Below, piece after piece: positions 7,230-13,639 of a stretch of DNA of 29,718 nucleotides; the stretch's first letter is position 1, and the number at the start of each line of letters is the position of its first letter. Source of the stretch: a virus (Duplodnaviria; Caudoviricetes). Both the position numbers and the translations under genes were made by a program. The notes beneath the pieces are model-generated. The model worked only from the letters and a program-made list of their open reading frames with translations. It was not told the DNA's origin and searched no databases. Location of the stretch: positions 1 through 29,718 of the IMG/VR virus record IMGVR_UViG_3300032095_000017, one strand, 5' to 3'.

Positions 7230-7771
7230 GCAGCACTCACGGAAAAGTCAGAGCCAATGAGCTCTACCCAACACCGGATAACGTAGTCAGCGCCTTACTG
7301 AACAAACTGCAAATCAGGCCTACGGATCAATTTCTGGAACCCTGCAAAGGCCTGGGCGCTATCTTCAATCAGATTGATTTACCTGCCAGCCAAAAGCACT
7401 TTGCCGAGATTGCCGAGGGCATCGACTACCTGCAAACGCCATTTGGGCAAATGGACGTGATCATTACAAATCCGCCATTTAGCCTGACGGTTGAGTTTAT
7501 GCGCAAGTCGCTGTCAGAGCTGGCACCAGACGGCACCATGGCCTACTTGCAGCGGGTTAACTTTCTGGGCAGTAAAACCAGAGTGCCGTTTTGGGCCCAG
7601 GTCGGTTTTCCCGATAAGACGCCGATCATCATCCCCAGACCTCGCTTTGTGGGTGGCGGCTCAGACAGCTGTGAGTATTGCTGGTTTATCTATGACAGAG
7701 GTAACCGCTTTACCGCTATCCCTTCCGGGCTGAGCCACTTGCTCAGTGATGGAGTCGAGCAGGCCGCCTGA
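7226..7771 (+). CDS. Small amino (N6-A/N4-C) DNA methyltransferase
   Basis: ELYPTP, FLEPCKGLG (SAM-binding motif I) and IITNPPF (catalytic motif IV); ATG at 7226 overlaps the previous stop. Confidence 0.85.
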   Translation: MSSTHGKVRANELYPTPDNVVSALLNKLQIRPTDQFLEPCKGLGAIFNQIDLPASQKHFAEIAEGIDYLQTPFGQMDVIITNPPFSLTVEFMRKSLSELAPDGTMAYLQRVNFLGSKTRVPFWAQVGFPDKTPIIIPRPRFVGGGSDSCEYCWFIYDRGNRFTAIPSGLSHLLSDGVEQAA

Positions 7772-10002
7772 TGGATTTACAGCAATTTGAGCGACAGGCC
7801 GGGGTGAGTATCCCGGCCATTTTTGCCACCGCAAAAGCGCAAAACGACCTTAAACATGCCCAGCGTCACCTTGAGCGACTGCCGGATGATGTCGCGGCGA
7901 CCATGTTTCGCGAGTACATCGGCCGCTGGCGCCGGAACGAGCGCAGCGCCAATATTTGGCTGCGGCTCCGAGCTGCCGCCATCAGGGAAATGTTGACCCA
8001 GTTTCCGCTGCCAATCTGGCACATCAACACCGAAATACGCCGCGCCGCCATTGCCACCGAGTGGGCCGACCGTTGCCAGCGCCTGCTGAACAATGCCACC
8101 CAGTTTGGCCAGCAGCAGGTCGATGCCAAAGAGCTGCTGAACATAGTTAAGCAACCGGCCGACCAGTGGGGATTTTGCCCTGTGCTGCCGAGCTTCAAAA
8201 ACTACGACAGCAAAAAAGGCTGCGGCCAGTTTGACCGGGATCCAACCATGTACAACATGATTGCTGCCGCCATTGCCAGGCTGGTTGACGAAGCGTGGTG
8301 GGGCAGGCAACTGGAGAAAAGCTGGCGCCGATATCAGGAACATGCCGCCATTATCACTGGCCGGGTACGTGCCGGGGTTTCGCCTTATGTGTCTGCCCAA
8401 AGCCTGCGTGAATACAAACAGCGCAAACAGGCTGCCGGAGCGTGGCTCCACAGCAATTTTGTGATCAACGAAACCCACGGGCTGGAACTGCTGCTGGCTG
8501 ATGCCGTTGGCGCCAGTGTGGCCAACCCGGAAGTGCGTCGCGCCGAGCTGATGGTACGCATGCGCGGCTTTGAAGACTATGCCGAAGAAAACGGCTATGT
8601 GGGTGAGTTCTACACCTGGACTGCCCCGTCACGTTTCCACAGCTGGAAGAAATCAAAGAAAGGCCCCTGTTACGCCAATGGCCGTTACCGCGGCGCCAAT
8701 CCCAAAGACACCCAGGCTTACCTGTGCCAGCAGTGGGCCAAGACCCGCAGTAAACTGGCCCGGGAAGATGTCGACTTCTTTGGCTTTCGCGTGGTGGAGC
8801 CCCACCACGACGGCACGCCGCACTGGCACCTGCTGTTATTTGTGAAGCCCTCACAGCTGCGGCTGCTGCGGTCAATTATGCGCAGCTATGCCCTGGAACA
8901 TGACAAACACGACTTGGCCCCGGCCAAAGGCAAACGCGGCCCACGCTTCAGCGGCTACAGGCCGCGCTTCGACTTCAAAACCATTGACCCACAAAAGGGC
9001 AGCGCCACCGGCTATATCGCCAAATATATTGCCAAAAACATTGATGGTGCCTATGTCGCCGATGACTGGGAGGCAGAATCCAGCGGTAGCCATGGCGCAG
9101 AAGGTGTTACCGCCTGGGCCAGCACCTGGGGGATTAGGCAGTTTCAGCAAATTGGCGGCCCCAGCGTCACAGTTTGGCGAGAACTGCGGCGCCTGCGGGA
9201 GCCATGCGACTGGGACGACATTCTGGAAGATGCCCGCAGCGCAGCAGATACCAGCAACTGGCAGCGTTATGTCGAGGTAATGGGCGGCGCCTTCTGCCCA
9301 AGAGAATTGCGCCCGGTGCAACTGGCCAAAACCGTTAGCGAGCAGGCCAACCAATACGGCGAGGATGTGATCAAGATAATGGGCGTGCTTTCAAGCGAAA
9401 GCCACACCCCATTACACACCAGATTGGAAGGTTGGCAAATCTCAAGATATGGCCTCGGGCATGAAGGCGACACCGCTTTGCCAAGCGGCGACAGCCGCGC
9501 ACCTTGGAGTTCTGACAATAACTGTACGCAAGGATCCAAAGATCAAAAAAGGATCGGCAAATTGGAACAGGAAGCCGCCAAACTGGGGTTGGAGCCTGAA
9601 GATCTCGCGCTACTGCGCCATGGCTCGGTTATCAATAGCGGCGGAGTATTAATCAGCCTGCGCGACAACATGCTGCTGGTCAGCAAAGCCTCTGTCGCCG
9701 AGTCAGAACGGGCAGACGATTGGTCCACCATGGACAGCCACTTTGATGCCGCCGTTAAACACCACCACCAACAATGGCGCAAACAGCTGCGCGAACAGGC
9801 ATGGCAACTGCTGCAACATGGCGGTGATGTAGAGCAATGGATAGCCGGGTTGCCAAACCCGGATACCCAGCGCCTGGCGCTGGAGCAGCTGGCCGACGTT
9901 ATTGAGCTTGAGCGCATCGAGCGCCGGCAGCAGCAACACGCCGAACGCCAATATCAACAGCAAAAGTTCTGGGAGGATATCGAAGACGATGAACCTTTTT
10001 AA
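7771..10002 (+). CDS. A: Rolling-circle replication initiator gpA
   Basis: HUH motif EPHHDGTPHWHLL, catalytic GYIAKYIAKNIDG, and WGIRQFQQIGG. Confidence 0.95.
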   Translation: MDLQQFERQAGVSIPAIFATAKAQNDLKHAQRHLERLPDDVAATMFREYIGRWRRNERSANIWLRLRAAAIREMLTQFPLPIWHINTEIRRAAIATEWADRCQRLLNNATQFGQQQVDAKELLNIVKQPADQWGFCPVLPSFKNYDSKKGCGQFDRDPTMYNMIAAAIARLVDEAWWGRQLEKSWRRYQEHAAIITGRVRAGVSPYVSAQSLREYKQRKQAAGAWLHSNFVINETHGLELLLADAVGASVANPEVRRAELMVRMRGFEDYAEENGYVGEFYTWTAPSRFHSWKKSKKGPCYANGRYRGANPKDTQAYLCQQWAKTRSKLAREDVDFFGFRVVEPHHDGTPHWHLLLFVKPSQLRLLRSIMRSYALEHDKHDLAPAKGKRGPRFSGYRPRFDFKTIDPQKGSATGYIAKYIAKNIDGAYVADDWEAESSGSHGAEGVTAWASTWGIRQFQQIGGPSVTVWRELRRLREPCDWDDILEDARSAADTSNWQRYVEVMGGAFCPRELRPVQLAKTVSEQANQYGEDVIKIMGVLSSESHTPLHTRLEGWQISRYGLGHEGDTALPSGDSRAPWSSDNNCTQGSKDQKRIGKLEQEAAKLGLEPEDLALLRHGSVINSGGVLISLRDNMLLVSKASVAESERADDWSTMDSHFDAAVKHHHQQWRKQLREQAWQLLQHGGDVEQWIAGLPNPDTQRLALEQLADVIELERIERRQQQHAERQYQQQKFWEDIEDDEPF
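9497..9528 (+). other. Replication origin (gpA nick site) inside gene A
   Basis: GCGCACCTTGGAGTTCTGACAATAACTGTACG closely resembles the P2/186 ori (GCGCCTCG/GAGTCCTGTCAATAACTGT). Confidence 0.8.
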
Positions 10003-10231
10003 TCTGATGCCGGCGGCAGACCGCGAACGCTACCAACAGGCCCAGCAGCAAACCCGTGAACACCTGGAACGCTGGAAGCGCTGCAAGGCCAAGTTGGATG
10101 GCTTCAACCGCAAACAAATAGTGGCCTGGCTAGACCGCTTACCGATTGATGAGCGTGAAAAGTGTCGCACCGTACTCAACAACATAATGGCGGCCCGTAA
10201 GGCCAAAGAGCAACAACAGAGGGAAGCATGA
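9989..10231 (+). CDS. Hypothetical protein
   Basis: ATG at 9989 with ggagg upstream; overlaps the gpA stop and is coupled to the next gene. Confidence 0.6.
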   Translation: MNLFNLMPAADRERYQQAQQQTREHLERWKRCKAKLDGFNRKQIVAWLDRLPIDEREKCRTVLNNIMAARKAKEQQQREA

Positions 10232-10494
10232 AAATCACAGCTAACCTGCTGACAACTGTAACTATCACACCGACAGAACAGGATCGCATTGTCCGGGAGC
10301 GTCTGGCTCAGTTACTGGGGCTTTCAGCCTCAGAGCTGGGCGATCTCAGTCTTAAAGATGGAAAGCTACTGATGGAAGACTGGCACTATCACAGTAGTAC
10401 TACCAGAGTGTTGCGTGATGCCACCCCGCTAGATCAATCCGTGATCACTGTGCTGTCTGCCATGACTAAAGGTTATTCTGGCACGATGAGCTGA
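10228..10494 (+). CDS. Hypothetical protein
   Basis: 88-aa ORF with ATGA overlap. Confidence 0.7.
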   Translation: MKITANLLTTVTITPTEQDRIVRERLAQLLGLSASELGDLSLKDGKLLMEDWHYHSSTTRVLRDATPLDQSVITVLSAMTKGYSGTMS

Positions 10495-10528
10495 ATTAGA
10501 TTCTAAGAAAAATTAACGAATAAAAAAC

Positions 10529-10557
10529 TTGCAATTGGTCGCAATTGCGACCATAAT
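10529..10557 (+). promoter_or_regulatory. acr-aca2 operon promoter with palindromic Aca2 operator
   Basis: TTGCAA (10529-10534), 17-bp spacer, CATAAT (10552-10557), A-rich upstream; perfect palindrome TGGTCGCAA/TTGCGACCA at 10536-10553. Confidence 0.88.
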
Positions 10558-10566
10558 AAATTCAAC

Positions 10567-10610
10567 GGTTCGGCAATGGGTCGAACCAACTCAGCAAAGT
10601 GAGATAAAAA
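10567..10610 (+). promoter_or_regulatory. Double stem-loop 5' leader, copy 1 (putative Aca2 RNA-binding motif)
   Basis: GGTTCGGC-aatgg-GTCGAACC, aa, CTCA-gcaaag-TGAG, ataaaaa, then ATG. Confidence 0.8.
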
Positions 10611-10964
10611 ATGACTAAATCAGAAATATTCAAAGCAGCACACGAAATGGCTCGCGGCACTGTTAAAGCCGTTGGCAACTACACAGTAGCGTTTCAATTA
10701 GCTTTAAGCACAGTTCAAAACCATCTTAAGAACGGTGTTGGCGAGATAGCTCCTGTTGACCGCTCTAACCGTTATGCTAAGCGAGTTCGTCTTGCCCCTG
10801 TTTATACTGCCACAATGGTTGCCAAATACATTAAAGAGAATTCACGCATGCTTCGCGTTTTTACTTCACTAACTGCTTATAACGAAGAGTTCAAAGCTGG
10901 CAAGGTTGGCAAGTTCTGGGTAGACGCAAAGCATGATGGATTCTTGGCTTACGAATACTTTTAA
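10611..10964 (+). CDS. Candidate anti-CRISPR/anti-defence protein 1 (117 aa)
   Basis: First gene after the Aca2-operator promoter, upstream of aca2; small, AT-rich, no recognised domain. Confidence 0.7.
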   Translation: MTKSEIFKAAHEMARGTVKAVGNYTVAFQLALSTVQNHLKNGVGEIAPVDRSNRYAKRVRLAPVYTATMVAKYIKENSRMLRVFTSLTAYNEEFKAGKVGKFWVDAKHDGFLAYEYF

Positions 10965-10965
10965 T

Positions 10966-11009
10966 GATTCGGGATTGGCTCGGATCAACTCAGAAAAGTG
11001 AGATAAAAA
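10966..11009 (+). promoter_or_regulatory. Double stem-loop 5' leader, copy 2 (putative Aca2 RNA-binding motif)
   Basis: GATTCGGG-attgg-CTCGGATC, aa, CTCA-gaaaag-TGAG, ataaaaa, then ATG; same length as copy 1 with compensatory stem changes. Confidence 0.8.
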
Positions 11010-11279
11010 ATGGAAAATTTAAAATTCAAATCATCAACAATGGGTCTGATGGCTTCGCACAAAAATATGTCGACATGCAAACTGGTTCGCGTTGAATTTT
11101 ATGAAAAAAATGATGGAAGCATATTGCTTAAGGCGGTAAGCGGTCACTCATTGAACACTATAAAATCTATCGCATTCGTTACAATACCTCGCAGTGAGTA
11201 CGCCGACAGGCCTTACGACTATTACGATGATGCAGTTGAAGCAATTTGGGCATTCGGAAAGCTCGGGCTAGAAATTTAA
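11010..11279 (+). CDS. Candidate anti-CRISPR/anti-defence protein 2 (89 aa)
   Basis: Immediately upstream of aca2 with its own leader copy; acidic/aromatic C-terminus (EYADRPYDYYDDAVE); no recognised domain. Confidence 0.72.
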   Translation: MENLKFKSSTMGLMASHKNMSTCKLVRVEFYEKNDGSILLKAVSGHSLNTIKSIAFVTIPRSEYADRPYDYYDDAVEAIWAFGKLGLEI

Positions 11280-11283
11280 AATC

Positions 11284-11304
11284 AAGGGGCTTATGCCCCT
11301 TTTT
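11284..11304 (+). terminator. Intrinsic terminator between the candidate acr genes and aca2
   Basis: AAGGGGC-ttat-GCCCCTT followed by further Ts. Confidence 0.7.
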
Positions 11305-11318
11305 ACGGAGTTTAATTT

Positions 11319-11678
11319 ATGACTAACAACGAACTAAAGCAGCTTAGGCGCTTACTGTTTCTCGAAGTTAACGAGGCGGCCAAATTGATCGGTAACTGTG
11401 AGCCTCGCACCTGGCAACGCTGGGAAAAAGGTGATCGCTCTATTCCTGCTGATATCATTCAAACTGTCCAGATGCTGGCTTTAACGCGAATGGATCGTTT
11501 GCAGGTAGACATTGATGACCAAAGCCCTAACTACCGTTATTTCGACAGATTTTCCGATTATAAAGCAGCTGGAGGTGCTGGAAACGAGCTGATGTGGCGT
11601 TTGGCTCAATCAGTAGCAACTGAAGTGCTATGCGAAAGAGAGTCGGACCAGTGGCGGGAAGAAGAAACGATTAATTAG
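11319..11678 (+). CDS. aca2: Anti-CRISPR-associated repressor Aca2 (YdiL/DUF1870 HTH family)
   Basis: MTNNELKQLRRLLFLEVNEAAKLIG...RTWQRWEKGDRSIP...WRLAQSVA matches the Aca2 signature (MTNxELxxxRxLLxLxVxEAA...W..WE.G...P...WRL.QSVA); RBS ggag. Confidence 0.9.
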   Translation: MTNNELKQLRRLLFLEVNEAAKLIGNCEPRTWQRWEKGDRSIPADIIQTVQMLALTRMDRLQVDIDDQSPNYRYFDRFSDYKAAGGAGNELMWRLAQSVATEVLCERESDQWREEETIN

Positions 11679-11697
11679 AAATATCGCTCTTATCAAA

Positions 11698-12006
11698 TCA
11701 ACCATCACACTCGCCGGGCAGCAGCTCGGCAATGGCCTGCAGGTGGCGGCAAATCTTCTGCTTGTCTGCCTGGCTCAAAATCGCCAGCGGCTCCTGCGGG
11801 CTGTAGTCCAACAAATCACGCAAGCGCATATCCAACGCATCGGCAATCGCCATTAACACGCTGAGACGCATATCATAGCCACGCTCAATCTTGCCTATGG
11901 TTCGGCTACTGACGCCAACCGTATCCGCGAGTTGAGTCTGTGTCATTTTCATTTTTTTCCGTTGGTTTCCAATCCGTTGGCCAATCAGATCAAAGCTGAT
12001 GGTCAT
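11698..12006 (-). CDS. XRE-family HTH transcriptional regulator
   Basis: IGQRIGNQRKKMKMTQTQLADTVGVSSRTIGKIERG...LMAIADAL is a canonical HTH_3 pattern. Confidence 0.85.
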   Translation of the reverse strand: MTISFDLIGQRIGNQRKKMKMTQTQLADTVGVSSRTIGKIERGYDMRLSVLMAIADALDMRLRDLLDYSPQEPLAILSQADKQKICRHLQAIAELLPGECDG

Positions 12007-12148: not shown

Positions 12149-12346
12149 ATGTGCATATTGATTAGGCAAATGGATTTAGTCATAAGAGCAATTGAATGCA
12201 ATGCGTCAGCGGACGATAAAGAAACCGCCATCAGCTTGATGGCGGCGATAGTCAAAAACGGTTGTGAAGGGTGCGAACTTAAAACCGCAATTCCTGTTGC
12301 AACTGCTTGCGCGCCTCGGGTGGTAAGGCCCTCACCAACTCAATGA
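12149..12346 (+). CDS. Small protein resembling the phage 186 Tum antirepressor N-terminus
   Basis: RBS taaggag; LIRQMDLVIR...DDKETAISLMAAI aligns by eye with Tum (IERVEMIAR...DREIALNLIAEI, recalled from memory). Confidence 0.5.
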   Translation: MCILIRQMDLVIRAIECNASADDKETAISLMAAIVKNGCEGCELKTAIPVATACAPRVVRPSPTQ

Positions 12347-12527
12347 CCAGATTACTGGCAGAGCGGGAACTGGGGCTTAGAGTGTGGCTGAAACTGAGAT
12401 TAACCACAAAAGTATGGCCACACTCTGCATCGGTGCAGCTACAATACAAATCAGCATGCACCAATGACAAACGATTGGTTTTGCTGATCCTGGCCCGTTG
12501 GCCACAGGTTGGACACATTACCCGCAT
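12279..12527 (-). CDS. ogr: Ogr/Delta zinc-finger late-gene activator
   Basis: CPTCG...LYCSCTDAECGHTF...SHTLSPS. Confidence 0.92.
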   Translation of the reverse strand: MRVMCPTCGQRARISKTNRLSLVHADLYCSCTDAECGHTFVVNLSFSHTLSPSSRSASNLVIELVRALPPEARKQLQQELRF

Positions 12528-12562: not shown

Positions 12563-12596
12563 AGTTTACGCCAGGGTACTGTTTTTTTAAACAGTG
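12563..12596 (-). promoter_or_regulatory. Putative ogr promoter overlapped by a LexA (SOS) box
   Basis: taCTGTTTTTTTAAACAGtg (CTG-N10-CAG, 12579-12594); on the minus strand TTTAAA (12591-12586), 17-bp spacer, TAAACT (12568-12563). Confidence 0.6.
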
Positions 12597-13639
12597 CTGC
12601 CACCTTCTTGCAAATCAAACTTCAGTTTAACCGCCTGAGGCACCTCGGGATCCCTATCAACCGCGTCGCGCATTTCCATTAACAGCGCCTTGGTTTCGGT
12701 GCGGAAATACACCTCTTCATAGGTTTGCGGGTTGCCGAAGCCGGCCGTGTTGCTGGGGATAATCCCAGCCAGCCCGGGCGGGAAACGGTGAGCGTTAAGC
12801 ACATCCTGAGCGCTGACGTTTTTCACGTTCATAAACTCATCTTTCGACTCGAAGTTACCAACGGGGATGATTTGAATCCCTTTCTCTTTGCCGTTGGGAA
12901 TATTCACAAACAGTGAGCGGAAGTTACCCACCCCTTTGCTGTCCTGAATCTTTTGCTTTAGCTCTTCCTCGGTTTCCGGGTCCAGGTTGGGATCTGTGGC
13001 ATACATGATAAAGCCCATGTGCGCGCCGTTGATGTAGTATTTACGGCGGAACATAGTCGCGTCTTCATTCAGCAGTGCCGCCTGCAAGCCGCCCAAGTAG
13101 TCGGGGCAGCCGTATACTTGCTGAACCGTGTCATACTGGCGCACCCAAATAATATTGCGCGCCTTGTAAACCCGTTTCTCGTTATTGGCTTCAAGCACCA
13201 CGGCGCCGCCGTCACGGCTGACTCGAGTACGATAACTCGGCAGCGGGAACAGCCGCAGCACCCGCCCGAAACCGTCGCGGATCTTCAAAAGCGCCACATC
13301 GCCAAAGGTGATGTGATTCAAAAATGCCGCCTTGACCTCCTGCGCCGTCATACCGCCGCCTTGATAACGGGCCGCCGCCATATTGGCGCGACTCTGGATA
13401 ATACCGCCGTGCTGGGCATTTTTCCTCGGCAGTTTCGCCAGCAGCTGCCGGTCAACAGGTGGCTCCCAATAGCCGTTGTTTTCGTCAAACCACAGGCTGT
13501 CGTAATCTGTTAGCCACTGATTGGGATCCATGGTTTCCGGCAATGAAAACACCACAGTGCCATTGTCACGCTGGCTGTCAGGGGCCGCTTGTTGTTGATG
13601 AAAGCGGCGGCCTTTGGATTTTACGCGGCGAGAGCCCAT
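12587..13639 (-). CDS. Q: Portal protein (PBSX family, P2 gpQ)
   Basis: [36 protein letters not shown] and [13 protein letters not shown]. Confidence 0.95.

What the first reader, a model, noticed from the sequence alone, without database searches (positions are those of the whole stretch)
10567..11009. 44-nt double-hairpin leader duplicated in front of each candidate acr, with compensatory base changes
Seen: copies at 10567-10610 and 10966-11009 have identical length and spacing to ATG. In the 8-bp stem 1, pair 2 changes G-C to A-U, pair 4 U-A to U-G and pair 8 C-G to G-C, while a G-U at pair 7 and the loop A(A/U)UGG are kept. Stem 2 CUCA/UGAG sequesters the likely RBS. This is direct evidence of selection on RNA structure. 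Known: Aca2 of phage ZF40 also binds a two-stem-loop 5' UTR motif and blocks translation. Inference: each cistron has its own Aca2 translational operator, making leader+ORF a portable cassette. The repeats could also mediate recombinational gain or loss of acr genes, and the motif could be used to find further Acrs.
Basis: partly seen in the sequence, partly recalled or inferred. Interest (0 to 1): 0.75.

Follow-up and report, generated by a model that had tools for sequence, protein, structure and literature searches.

The report
Second Aca2 RNA operator inside operon
A P2-like phage carries the known two-hairpin leader of Aca2-controlled anti-CRISPR operons twice, once behind the promoter and once between two genes where relatives still have a second promoter, so the Aca2 regulator would likely shut off translation of each gene separately; this kind of arrangement has already been predicted in print.

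Summary
Two 44-nt leaders (10567-10610, 10966-11009) end at the ATGs of two small orphan ORFs. Both fold into the same two hairpins. All 5 stem differences between them keep pairing.

Both copies are members of the Aca2 leader RNA motif described for phage ZF40. A covariance model built without the window scores them at 67.6 and 63.4 bits. Across 25 distinct relatives, 285 of 285 pair cells are paired.

What I add: all 32 other leaders examined sit behind a promoter that holds a palindromic Aca2 DNA operator, and copy 2 does not. Three relatives with the same upstream gene have 45 extra bases, a promoter plus operator, exactly where the window fuses the ORF1 stop codon to leader 2. Contigs from three further runs carry the same junction.

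The phage genome therefore has one DNA operator and two RNA operators. ORF2 is likely controlled by Aca2 at translation only. Binding is untested.

RNA motifs between genes of acr-aca operons were predicted by Feussner et al. 2026 (PMC13551039), so this is a new member of a known kind. An earlier scan note (e1-9759396) describes a similar Aca2-type operon on other DNA.

In passing: a conserved terminator-like hairpin lies just before aca2.

The parts
10529..10557 (+). Promoter P1 (-35 TTGCAA, 17-nt spacer, -10 CATAAT).
   Evidence: Consensus scan (9 of 12 matches). It has the same layout as the promoters in front of the other leaders printed.
10536..10553 (.). Perfect 18-bp palindrome between the -35 and -10 hexamers, the predicted Aca2 DNA operator (counterpart of ZF40 IR1).
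   Evidence: inverted repeat I3. It is the only 0-2-mismatch match to the operator pattern in the whole 29.7-kb genome. The 15 matches with 3 mismatches are at chance level. IR1 binding is shown for ZF40 in PMC6765145 (passages).
10567..10610 (+). Leader copy 1. Stem-loop 1 is 10567-10587, stem-loop 2 is 10590-10603 and holds the likely ribosome site, and the spacer is 10604-10610.
   Evidence: R1 scores it 71.8 bits. R2, built without the window, scores it 67.6 bits, E 1.4e-20.
10611..10964 (+). ORF1, 117 aa, a candidate anti-defence gene of unknown family.
   Evidence: No Pfam family. No PDB match by sequence or by profile. 19 homologues, all unnamed or labelled hypothetical. AF2 pLDDT 84 with no fold match.
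10954..10965 (+). End of ORF1 (stop codon 10962-10964). This is the junction where relatives carry 45 more bases, a promoter plus operator. It is a 12-nt imperfect repeat of the -10/spacer segment.
   Evidence: Alignment A6. Contigs from runs X2, X3 and X4 bridge it without any indel.
10966..11009 (+). Leader copy 2, between the two ORFs. Stem-loop 1 is 10966-10986, stem-loop 2 is 10989-11002, and the spacer is 11003-11009.
   Evidence: R1 scores it 66.9 bits and R2 63.4 bits, E 3.4e-19. There is no promoter or operator upstream.
11010..11279 (+). ORF2, 89 aa, a candidate anti-defence gene and near-orphan.
   Evidence: Only 2 homologues among 5.8 billion clusters. No Pfam or PDB match. 25% identity, pairwise E 4e-4, to the Aca2-linked 79-aa protein of Pasteurella phage CFP3. 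AF2 pLDDT 72 with no fold match.
11284..11304 (+). Terminator-like G+C hairpin plus T run between ORF2 and aca2.
   Evidence: the scan listed it on the - strand only. It is conserved with covarying stems in relatives.
11319..11678 (+). aca2, 119 aa, with no leader motif of its own.
   Evidence: PF08965 at 2.1e-17. PDB Aca2 entries 8w35 and 7vjo at 1e-18. No R2 match upstream of it.

Best explanation
Both copies are instances of the Aca2 leader RNA motif, and the Aca2 dimer encoded by the third gene would likely bind each one on the polycistronic mRNA and block ribosome entry at ORF1 and at ORF2 separately.

Shown here:
- The operon is P1 with one palindromic DNA operator, leader 1, ORF1, leader 2, ORF2, a terminator-like hairpin, then aca2.
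- Leader 2 starts 2 nt after the ORF1 stop codon and has no promoter or DNA operator of its own.
- Relatives with the same ORF1 have a 45-nt promoter-operator segment at that spot.

Inferred:
- Transcription of ORF2 depends on P1.
- Aca2 represses P1 at the DNA operator and represses translation at both RNA leaders, as shown for the single leader of phage ZF40.
- aca2 has no leader, so it stays translatable.
- A ribosome finishing ORF1 would cover the 5' arm of leader 2. Leader 2 should therefore become fully available to Aca2 only once ORF1 translation has been shut off.
For: 1. Identity of the regulator. The third gene matches PF08965 Aca2_YdiL at 2.1e-17 and PDB Aca2 chains 8w35, 7vjo and 7b5j at about 1e-18.

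2. Motif membership.
- Model R1 finds 28 matches at E below 1e-4 in the window plus 36 related loci. Copy 1 scores 71.8 bits and copy 2 66.9 bits, seventh of the 28.
- Model R2, built from 22 leaders with none from the window, still gives 67.6 and 63.4 bits. The next best place in the genome scores 14.6 bits.
- The ZF40 leader is matched at 22.9 bits, E 1.6e-5. It lies inside the RNA probe printed in the supplement of PMC13551039.

3. Structure. On 25 distinct sequences, 285 of 285 cells are paired and 8 of 12 pairs change on both sides. Pair 8 is C-G 11 times, G-C 7 times and A-U 5 times. None of 500 shuffles reaches the observed values, and slid registers give 11-54% paired. The G-U at pair 7 is kept in 21 of 25, which argues for RNA rather than a DNA palindrome.

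4. Downstream genes. The same leader precedes proven Acrs: AcrIF9 (6vqv at 7e-41), AcrIF10 (6anw at 4e-60) and AcrIF8 of ZF40.

5. Copy 2 stands alone.
- 32 of 32 other leader instances have a promoter with an embedded palindrome within about 45 nt upstream. These are 29, of which 23 were flagged by my regex and 6 were read by eye, plus 3. Copy 2 has none.
- The genome has a single operator match.

6. Derived state. L007, L019 (Shewanella cutis) and L018 (a Plesiomonas MAG) carry 45 more bases, a promoter plus operator, between the ORF1 homologue and leader 2.

7. The junction is real. One 32.8-kb contig in run X2 and shorter contigs in X3 and X4, from three other studies, bridge it with no indel.

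8. Published mechanism. Aca2 binds two hairpins in the 5' UTR and blocks ribosome binding (PMC13551039, introduction and discussion passages). RNA motifs between adjacent genes are predicted there (section 22).
Against: - No binding or expression data exist for this phage. No RNA run was available.
- The primary paper (Birkholz 2024, Nature) is not held. The determinants of Aca2-RNA recognition could therefore not be compared residue by residue.
- The ZF40 leader is only a weak match to my clade-specific model (22.9 bits).
- The promoter loss may be recent. The four holders differ by at most 10 bases in 1401, and none of those differences fall in the leaders, where only about 0.6 would be expected. 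Intactness of leader 2 therefore does not prove selection after the loss. Its pairing-preserving differences from copy 1 largely predate the deletion, because relatives' second leaders share the G-C pair 8.
- The alignment used for pair counts was fitted to the model, which leans towards the structure.
- Stem 2 is weak at -3.4 kcal/mol.
- Gating by the ribosome that terminates on ORF1 is pure inference.
Confidence: 0.7

Rival explanations
1. Leader 2 is a recent leftover. A deletion, or a recombination between the ORF1 tail and the -10/spacer of a second cassette, removed the promoter. What remains serves only as the ribosome-binding region of ORF2, and regulation by Aca2 at this copy is absent or irrelevant.
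For: The leader-only state is seen in 1 of 34 instances examined. It is confined to one lineage whose members differ by at most 0.7%, so there has been little time for decay. Most pairing-preserving differences from copy 1 are shared with relatives' promoter-bearing second leaders.
Against: Copy 2 has every feature of functional leaders and scores 63.4 bits with an independent model. An Aca2 dimer that recognises copy 1 has no obvious reason to ignore it. The two substitutions that set it apart from the nearest relatives' leaders (G to A at pair 2, A to G at pair 4) both keep pairing. Internal RNA motifs recur in other operons according to PMC13551039.
Confidence: 0.17
2. Stem 1 acts as a DNA inverted repeat (the IR2 of the 2019 model). 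It would be a second, low-affinity DNA operator or a roadblock inside the operon, not an RNA structure.
For: Birkholz 2019 (PMC6765145, passages) found that IR2 could mediate repression in vivo at high Aca2 levels.
Against: The same paper found no DNA binding to IR2 in vitro up to 1000 nM. The conserved G-U at pair 7 (21 of 25) and the U-G in copy 2 are mismatches in DNA but pairs in RNA. Stem 2, the fixed distance to the start codon and later work assign the element to the mRNA.
Confidence: 0.05
3. The repeated leader is mainly an mRNA processing or stability element, or a recombination hotspot for swapping cargo genes, with no role for a regulator at copy 2.
For: - Similarity to L007 and L019 ends at the leader and resumes at the terminator hairpin, with AcrIF10 replaced by ORF2 in between.
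- Copy 2 looks chimeric. Its 5' half is 18-19 of 21 like the second leaders of relatives. Its 3' half is 22 of 23 like the window's copy 1 but only 16-18 of 23 like those relatives.
Against: Recombination use does not exclude regulation. The hints rest on about 20-nt segments. No processing signal was tested.
Confidence: 0.08

Closest known systems
5' UTR two-hairpin RNA motif of the acrIF8-aca2 operon of Pectobacterium phage ZF40 (Birkholz et al. 2024, Nature, not held; known here through PMC13551039. It was first noted as IR2 in PMC6765145).
   Same: - Two hairpins lie directly before the acr start codon.
- Stem 1 has a CG core.
- The ribosome site sits in the 3' arm of stem 2, 7 nt before the ATG.
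- aca2 lies downstream.
- For copy 1, the position is just after a promoter that holds a palindromic operator.
   Different: - The sequence has diverged. ZF40 scores only 22.9 bits with the clade model.
- The loop has 5 nt against 4 in ZF40.
- Stem 2 is CUCA/UGAG, not the GAGGA-containing stem of ZF40.
- There are two copies in one operon.
- Copy 2 is internal and has no DNA operator.
[quoted passage not shown] 2026, PMC13551039, section 22 and the legend of Fig. 3A, read).
   Same: An RNA motif lies between two cargo genes of an Aca2-controlled operon, and it is interpreted as gene-by-gene translational control.
   Different: That report is one sentence plus a figure I cannot see, and it was not tested. 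Here the internal copy can be traced to a 45-nt loss of promoter and operator by comparison with three relatives. I did not check whether this record is among their examples.
[quoted passage not shown]
   Same: The ORF1 family comes first, and the same leader class stands before the second gene, followed by the terminator-like hairpin and aca2.
   Different: Relatives keep the second promoter and DNA operator, and three of them carry AcrIF10 where the window has ORF2.
Classical translational operators inside polycistronic mRNAs, such as phage T4 RegA targets, the MS2 coat protein-replicase hairpin, and ribosomal-protein operons (textbook knowledge, not checked here).
   Same: A protein made from the same transcript binds a structured site that overlaps a ribosome-binding site and represses that cistron.
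   Different: Here the repressor is a helix-turn-helix protein that also binds DNA, and the same operator is repeated before two unrelated cistrons.

Membership tests
Aca2 leader RNA motif (proteobacterial type) | Two adjacent hairpins immediately upstream of the start codon of a cargo (acr) gene, with the ribosome site in or next to the second hairpin. | tested here: met
   Both copies fold this way and align over all 47 model positions. The GUGA/GAG ribosome-site candidate lies in the 3' arm of stem 2, 7-8 nt before the ATG.
Aca2 leader RNA motif (proteobacterial type) | An aca2 gene (PF08965/DUF1870 HTH) in the same operon. | tested here: met
   Gene 11319-11678 matches PF08965 at 2.1e-17 and PDB Aca2 at 1e-18.
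Aca2 leader RNA motif (proteobacterial type) | Hairpins supported by covariation across homologous loci. | tested here: met
   285 of 285 cells are paired, 8 of 12 pairs change on both sides, and 0 of 500 shuffles reach the observed values. The alignment was fitted to the model.
Aca2 leader RNA motif (proteobacterial type) | Homology to the experimentally bound ZF40 5' UTR. | tested here: met
   R1 matches the ZF40 leader at 22.9 bits, E 1.6e-5. That region lies inside the ZF40 RNA probe printed in the supplement of PMC13551039. The match is weak.
Aca2 leader RNA motif (proteobacterial type) | Position directly downstream of the transcription start of a promoter that overlaps an Aca2 DNA inverted repeat (the architecture stated in PMC13551039, section 21). 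| tested here: met
   This row is for copy 1. The palindrome is at 10536-10553, the -10 hexamer ends at 10557, and the motif starts at 10567.
Aca2 leader RNA motif (proteobacterial type) | The same positional feature, tested for copy 2. | tested here: not met
   There is no promoter or palindrome upstream, and the motif starts 2 nt after the ORF1 stop codon. Copy 2 is therefore filed as an internal variant of the motif, not as a 5' UTR motif.
Aca2 leader RNA motif (proteobacterial type) | Specific binding by Aca2 and translational repression. | not testable with these tools
   This needs EMSA, toeprinting or reporter assays. No RNA-protein prediction tool was on hand.
Anti-CRISPR proteins (ORF1, ORF2) | Homology to a characterised Acr, or shown inhibition of a CRISPR-Cas system. 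| tested here: not met
   No Pfam, PDB-sequence, profile or fold match. They are candidates by position only. ORF1 homologues sit next to AcrIF10.

The most novel reading that the evidence does not exclude
Leader 2 is a natural separation-of-function case. It is an Aca2 RNA operator that has outlived the loss of its DNA operator, so ORF2 is an anti-defence gene controlled by Aca2 purely at translation. Access to the operator is gated by ribosomes that terminate on ORF1 only 2 nt upstream, so the two cistrons are shut off in order. Together with the conserved terminator-like hairpin that limits read-through into aca2, this would form a three-layer timing circuit: a DNA operator, serial RNA operators, and attenuated regulator synthesis.
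Probability: 0.25. Interest if true: 0.55.

Novelty: new member of a known kind. Interest (0 to 1): 0.33.

Why it matters
The finding gives a clean, naturally occurring test case for the RNA-binding half of Aca2. Close relatives have DNA plus RNA operators before the second gene, and this phage has the RNA operator alone. Comparing the two layouts could show how much control the RNA site gives by itself inside a polycistronic message.

It also flags two unstudied small proteins as anti-defence candidates. ORF1 is a 19-member family in Shewanella, Vibrio and Plesiomonas that sits beside AcrIF10. ORF2 is nearly an orphan.

The general idea, internal Aca2 RNA motifs and motif-guided Acr discovery, is already published, so the gain is an example and a testable detail rather than a new principle.

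Tried and rejected
- **Rfam.** No family matched. The four hits had E of 0.79 or more and were far below gathering scores.
- **Phage DNA search.** blastn of the locus against GenBank phages found nothing.
- **First hairpin scan.** My first script was too noisy to use.
- **Birkholz 2024.** The paper is not held, so RNA-recognition determinants were not compared.
- **Search for more leader-only copies.**
  - The pattern scan of viral contigs returned only contigs already in hand.
  - The metagenome scan gave 8 stretches. Three were real and all had promoters. One was a weak 15.3-bit match in G+C-rich DNA without Aca2, which I dropped. Four had no model match.
- **Shewanellaceae species genomes.** ORF2 was found in 0 of 179 and ORF1 in 1 of 179, a locus already in hand. 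ORF1 and ORF2 pattern scans of viral contigs gave nothing useful.
- **Expression.** No RNA holder was listed.
- **More distant holders.** Whether more distant relatives share the junction stays open.
- **Identity of ORF1 and ORF2.** PDB sequence and profile searches, Atlas, AlphaFold2 and Foldseek gave no convincing match. AcrF1 at rank 2 for ORF2 has E 0.34, TM 0.36-0.40 and rmsd 8.3, which I treat as noise. The 100-aa protein of L025 also had no PDB match.
- **Earlier scan notes.** Nothing exists on this genome. The notes on other genomes did not change my reading.
- **Stem 2 sequestering the ribosome site on its own.** Rejected as too weak at -3.4 kcal/mol.

Full report
**What is there**

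The window is a complete 29.7-kb virus record with terminal repeats. Its gene content is P2-like:
- a large replication protein at 7771-10002;
- an Ogr/Delta zinc-finger gene at 12279-12527 on the minus strand;
- a portal-like gene at 12587-13639 on the minus strand.

Between them lies a lower-G+C island, at 0.39-0.46 against 0.50-0.60 in the flanks. On the plus strand it holds:
- a sigma-70-type promoter at 10529-10557;
- a perfect 18-bp palindrome at 10536-10553 between the promoter hexamers;
- leader copy 1 (10567-10610);
- ORF1 (10611-10964, 117 aa);
- leader copy 2 (10966-11009);
- ORF2 (11010-11279, 89 aa);
- a G+C hairpin with a T run (11284-11304);
- a 119-aa gene (11319-11678) that is Aca2 by Pfam (PF08965, 2.1e-17) and by match to solved Aca2 structures (8w35 and 7vjo at 1e-18).

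**Checking the observation**

The two copies are as described.
- Each copy folds into an 8-bp hairpin with a 5-nt loop, 2 nt, and a 4-bp hairpin with a 6-nt loop. The energies are -16.0 and -13.0 kcal/mol with z-scores of -4.9 and -3.8. In an 86-nt context the same structures are predicted, but the z-scores drop to -2.8 and -1.7.
- Seven positions differ. Five are in stem 1 and all preserve pairing, giving two double changes and one U-A to U-G change. Random substitution achieves this in under 1% of simulations.
- Stem 2 alone is worth only -3.4 kcal/mol. It presents the ribosome site rather than hiding it.

**What it is**

No Rfam family matches. Literature and comparison identify the element.
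- Feussner et al. 2026 (PMC13551039; passages and sections 22 and 25 read) summarise the earlier finding for phage ZF40. [quoted passage not shown]
- I fetched the ZF40 locus. It has the same plan: a promoter with a palindrome, an 8-bp stem with a CG core, a second small stem that holds the ribosome site, and 7 nt to the ATG.
- This stretch lies inside the ZF40 RNA probe printed in that paper's supplement.
- Birkholz et al. 2019 (PMC6765145, passages) had called stem 1 'IR2' and could not detect DNA binding to it.

**Family-level test**

- With Aca2 as bait I collected 13 viral loci, then 13 genome loci and 8 further viral loci.
- Model R1, built from 11 leaders, found 28 matches at E below 1e-4 in the window plus 36 loci. 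Copy 2 ranked seventh.
- On 25 distinct sequences, all 285 pair cells are standard pairs and 8 of 12 pairs show changes on both sides. Pair 8 is C-G 11 times, G-C 7 times and A-U 5 times. No shuffle of 500 reaches the observed values, and slid registers give 11-54% pairing. That alignment was fitted to the model, which favours the structure.
- The G-U at pair 7 is kept in 21 of 25. It would be a mismatch in DNA, which argues for an RNA element.
- Model R2, built from 22 leaders with none from the window and run without filters over the whole genome, scores copy 1 at 67.6 bits and copy 2 at 63.4 bits. Nothing else scores above 14.6 bits, and there is no match in front of aca2.

**Downstream genes**

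The genes behind these leaders in other loci include:
- AcrIF9;
- AcrIF10;
- AcrIF8 of ZF40;
- several unknown small proteins.

**What is special about copy 2**

- For every leader instance I printed the 60 nt upstream. All 29 non-window instances have a -35 hexamer, a palindrome and a -10 hexamer. My regex flagged 23, and the other six show variant palindromes by eye. Some loci are the same element held in two collections (L001 and L032, L009 and L020, L021 and L029).
- Three further instances from the metagenome scan are the same.
- Loci with two leaders (L007, L008, L018, L019) have two complete promoter-operator-leader units.
- Only the window's copy 2 lacks a promoter and operator. It starts 2 nt after the ORF1 stop codon.
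- The promoter scan finds no candidate upstream of copy 2. The operator pattern occurs once in the genome, with the 3-mismatch matches at chance level.

**Origin of the leader-only state**

- Alignment with L007, L019 (Shewanella cutis) and L018 (a Plesiomonas MAG) is informative because these encode ORF1 homologues. It shows a clean 45-nt gap in the window that removes exactly the promoter and operator.
- The gap is flanked by an imperfect 12-nt direct repeat. One copy is the end of ORF1 and the other is the -10/spacer segment.
- The parsimonious reading is either a deletion, or a recombination between these repeats that brought in another cassette.
- The junction is not an assembly artefact. 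A 32.8-kb contig in run X2 spans the whole locus with 10 differences and no indel. Contigs in X3 and X4 bridge the junction with no differences. All three come from studies other than the possible source of the record.
- None of the 10 differences falls in a leader, but only about 0.6 would be expected there. This says nothing about selection.

**Cassette behaviour**

- Similarity to L007 and L019 covers cassette 1, then the leader. It stops at the ORF2 start and resumes at the hairpin before aca2. ORF2 therefore stands where relatives have AcrIF10.
- Copy 2 looks chimeric.
  - Its stem-loop 1 is 18-19 of 21 identical to the second leaders of L005, L007 and L019, but only 15 of 21 to the window's copy 1.
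  - Its 3' part is 22 of 23 identical to copy 1, but 16-18 of 23 to those relatives.
It rests on very short segments.

**Mechanism proposed**

P1 would drive one transcript, since no other promoter was found. Aca2 would repress P1 at the single DNA operator and bind both RNA leaders, blocking initiation at ORF1 and at ORF2. aca2, which lacks a leader, would remain translatable.

Leader 2 begins 2 nt after the ORF1 stop codon. A terminating ribosome should therefore cover its 5' arm, so full occupancy of leader 2 by Aca2 would follow repression of ORF1. That last step is inference only.

I give the overall explanation 0.7. The main rival is that leader 2 is a recent, unregulated leftover, at 0.17.

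**The cargo genes**

- ORF1 has 19 homologues, all unnamed or labelled hypothetical, with named members from Shewanella, Vibrio and Plesiomonas. It has a confident model (pLDDT 84) and no sequence, profile or fold match.
- ORF2 has two homologues only.
- ORF2 resembles the Aca2-linked 79-aa protein of Pasteurella phage CFP3 only weakly, at 25% identity and pairwise E 4e-4.
- The ORF2 model has four strands plus a helix (pLDDT 72), and nothing convincing matches it.
- Both are anti-defence candidates by position only.

**Novelty**

- Leader 1 is an ordinary member of a described motif.
- An internal RNA motif between cargo genes was reported as a prediction in one sentence and a figure of PMC13551039. 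Motif-guided discovery of cargo genes was also done there.
- What this case adds is a documented route to the leader-only state and a natural comparison set.
- My verdict is therefore 'new member of a known kind', of moderate to low interest.

Noticed in passing
window 11284-11304; also L002-L006, L008-L010, L012-L019, L030 and L031, upstream of aca2: A terminator-like G+C hairpin with a T run lies 15-29 nt before the aca2 start codon, after the last cargo gene. My script found one in the window and in 19 of 28 other Aca2 loci. That falls to 18 if the doubtful L024 is dropped, and some of the loci are redundant. L007 misses by one mismatch. The stems covary, for example G-C to C-G in 4 of 13 aligned loci. 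ZF40 lacks it. It would limit read-through into aca2 or stabilise the acr message. 'Terminator' does not occur in PMC13551039 or PMC6765145. A search for 'acr-aca' plus 'terminator' gave nothing relevant.
   Followed up: partly
window 10954-10965, against L007 2066-2122: The last 12 nt of ORF1 resemble the -10/spacer segment that precedes every leader. This imperfect direct repeat flanks the 45-nt promoter-operator segment that the window lacks, which suggests slippage or homeologous recombination as the cause.
   Followed up: partly
window 10966-11009: Leader 2 looks chimeric. Its 5' hairpin is like the second leaders of relatives. Its 3' hairpin and spacer are 22 of 23 identical to leader 1 of the same phage. 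This could reflect gene conversion or a crossover inside the leader.
   Followed up: partly
window 10611-10964; L007 1720-2076, L019 1720-2076, L018, L008 1324-1701: ORF1 belongs to a small family of 19 proteins. In three relatives it sits directly upstream of AcrIF10, under its own Aca2 promoter-operator-leader. The family has no known domain or fold, which makes it a good untested anti-defence candidate.
   Followed up: partly
window 11010-11279; L002 1208-1447: ORF2 shares 25% identity (pairwise E 4e-4) with the small protein upstream of aca2 in Pasteurella phage vB_PmuM_CFP3, which is another P2-like (Peduoviridae) phage.
   Followed up: partly
window 10500-11700: The acr-aca2 island has 0.39-0.46 G+C against 0.50-0.60 in its flanks. 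It sits between the P2-type replication gene with two small ORFs (9989-10494) and a convergent HTH_3 repressor-like gene (11698-12006, minus strand). This looks like an accessory-gene slot of the phage.
   Followed up: no
L001 912-947 (ZF40): The GenBank annotation starts acrIF8 at an ATG inside the loop of stem 1 (locus position 912). The ATG that sits 7 nt after the ribosome-site hairpin is at 945, in the same frame.
   Followed up: no
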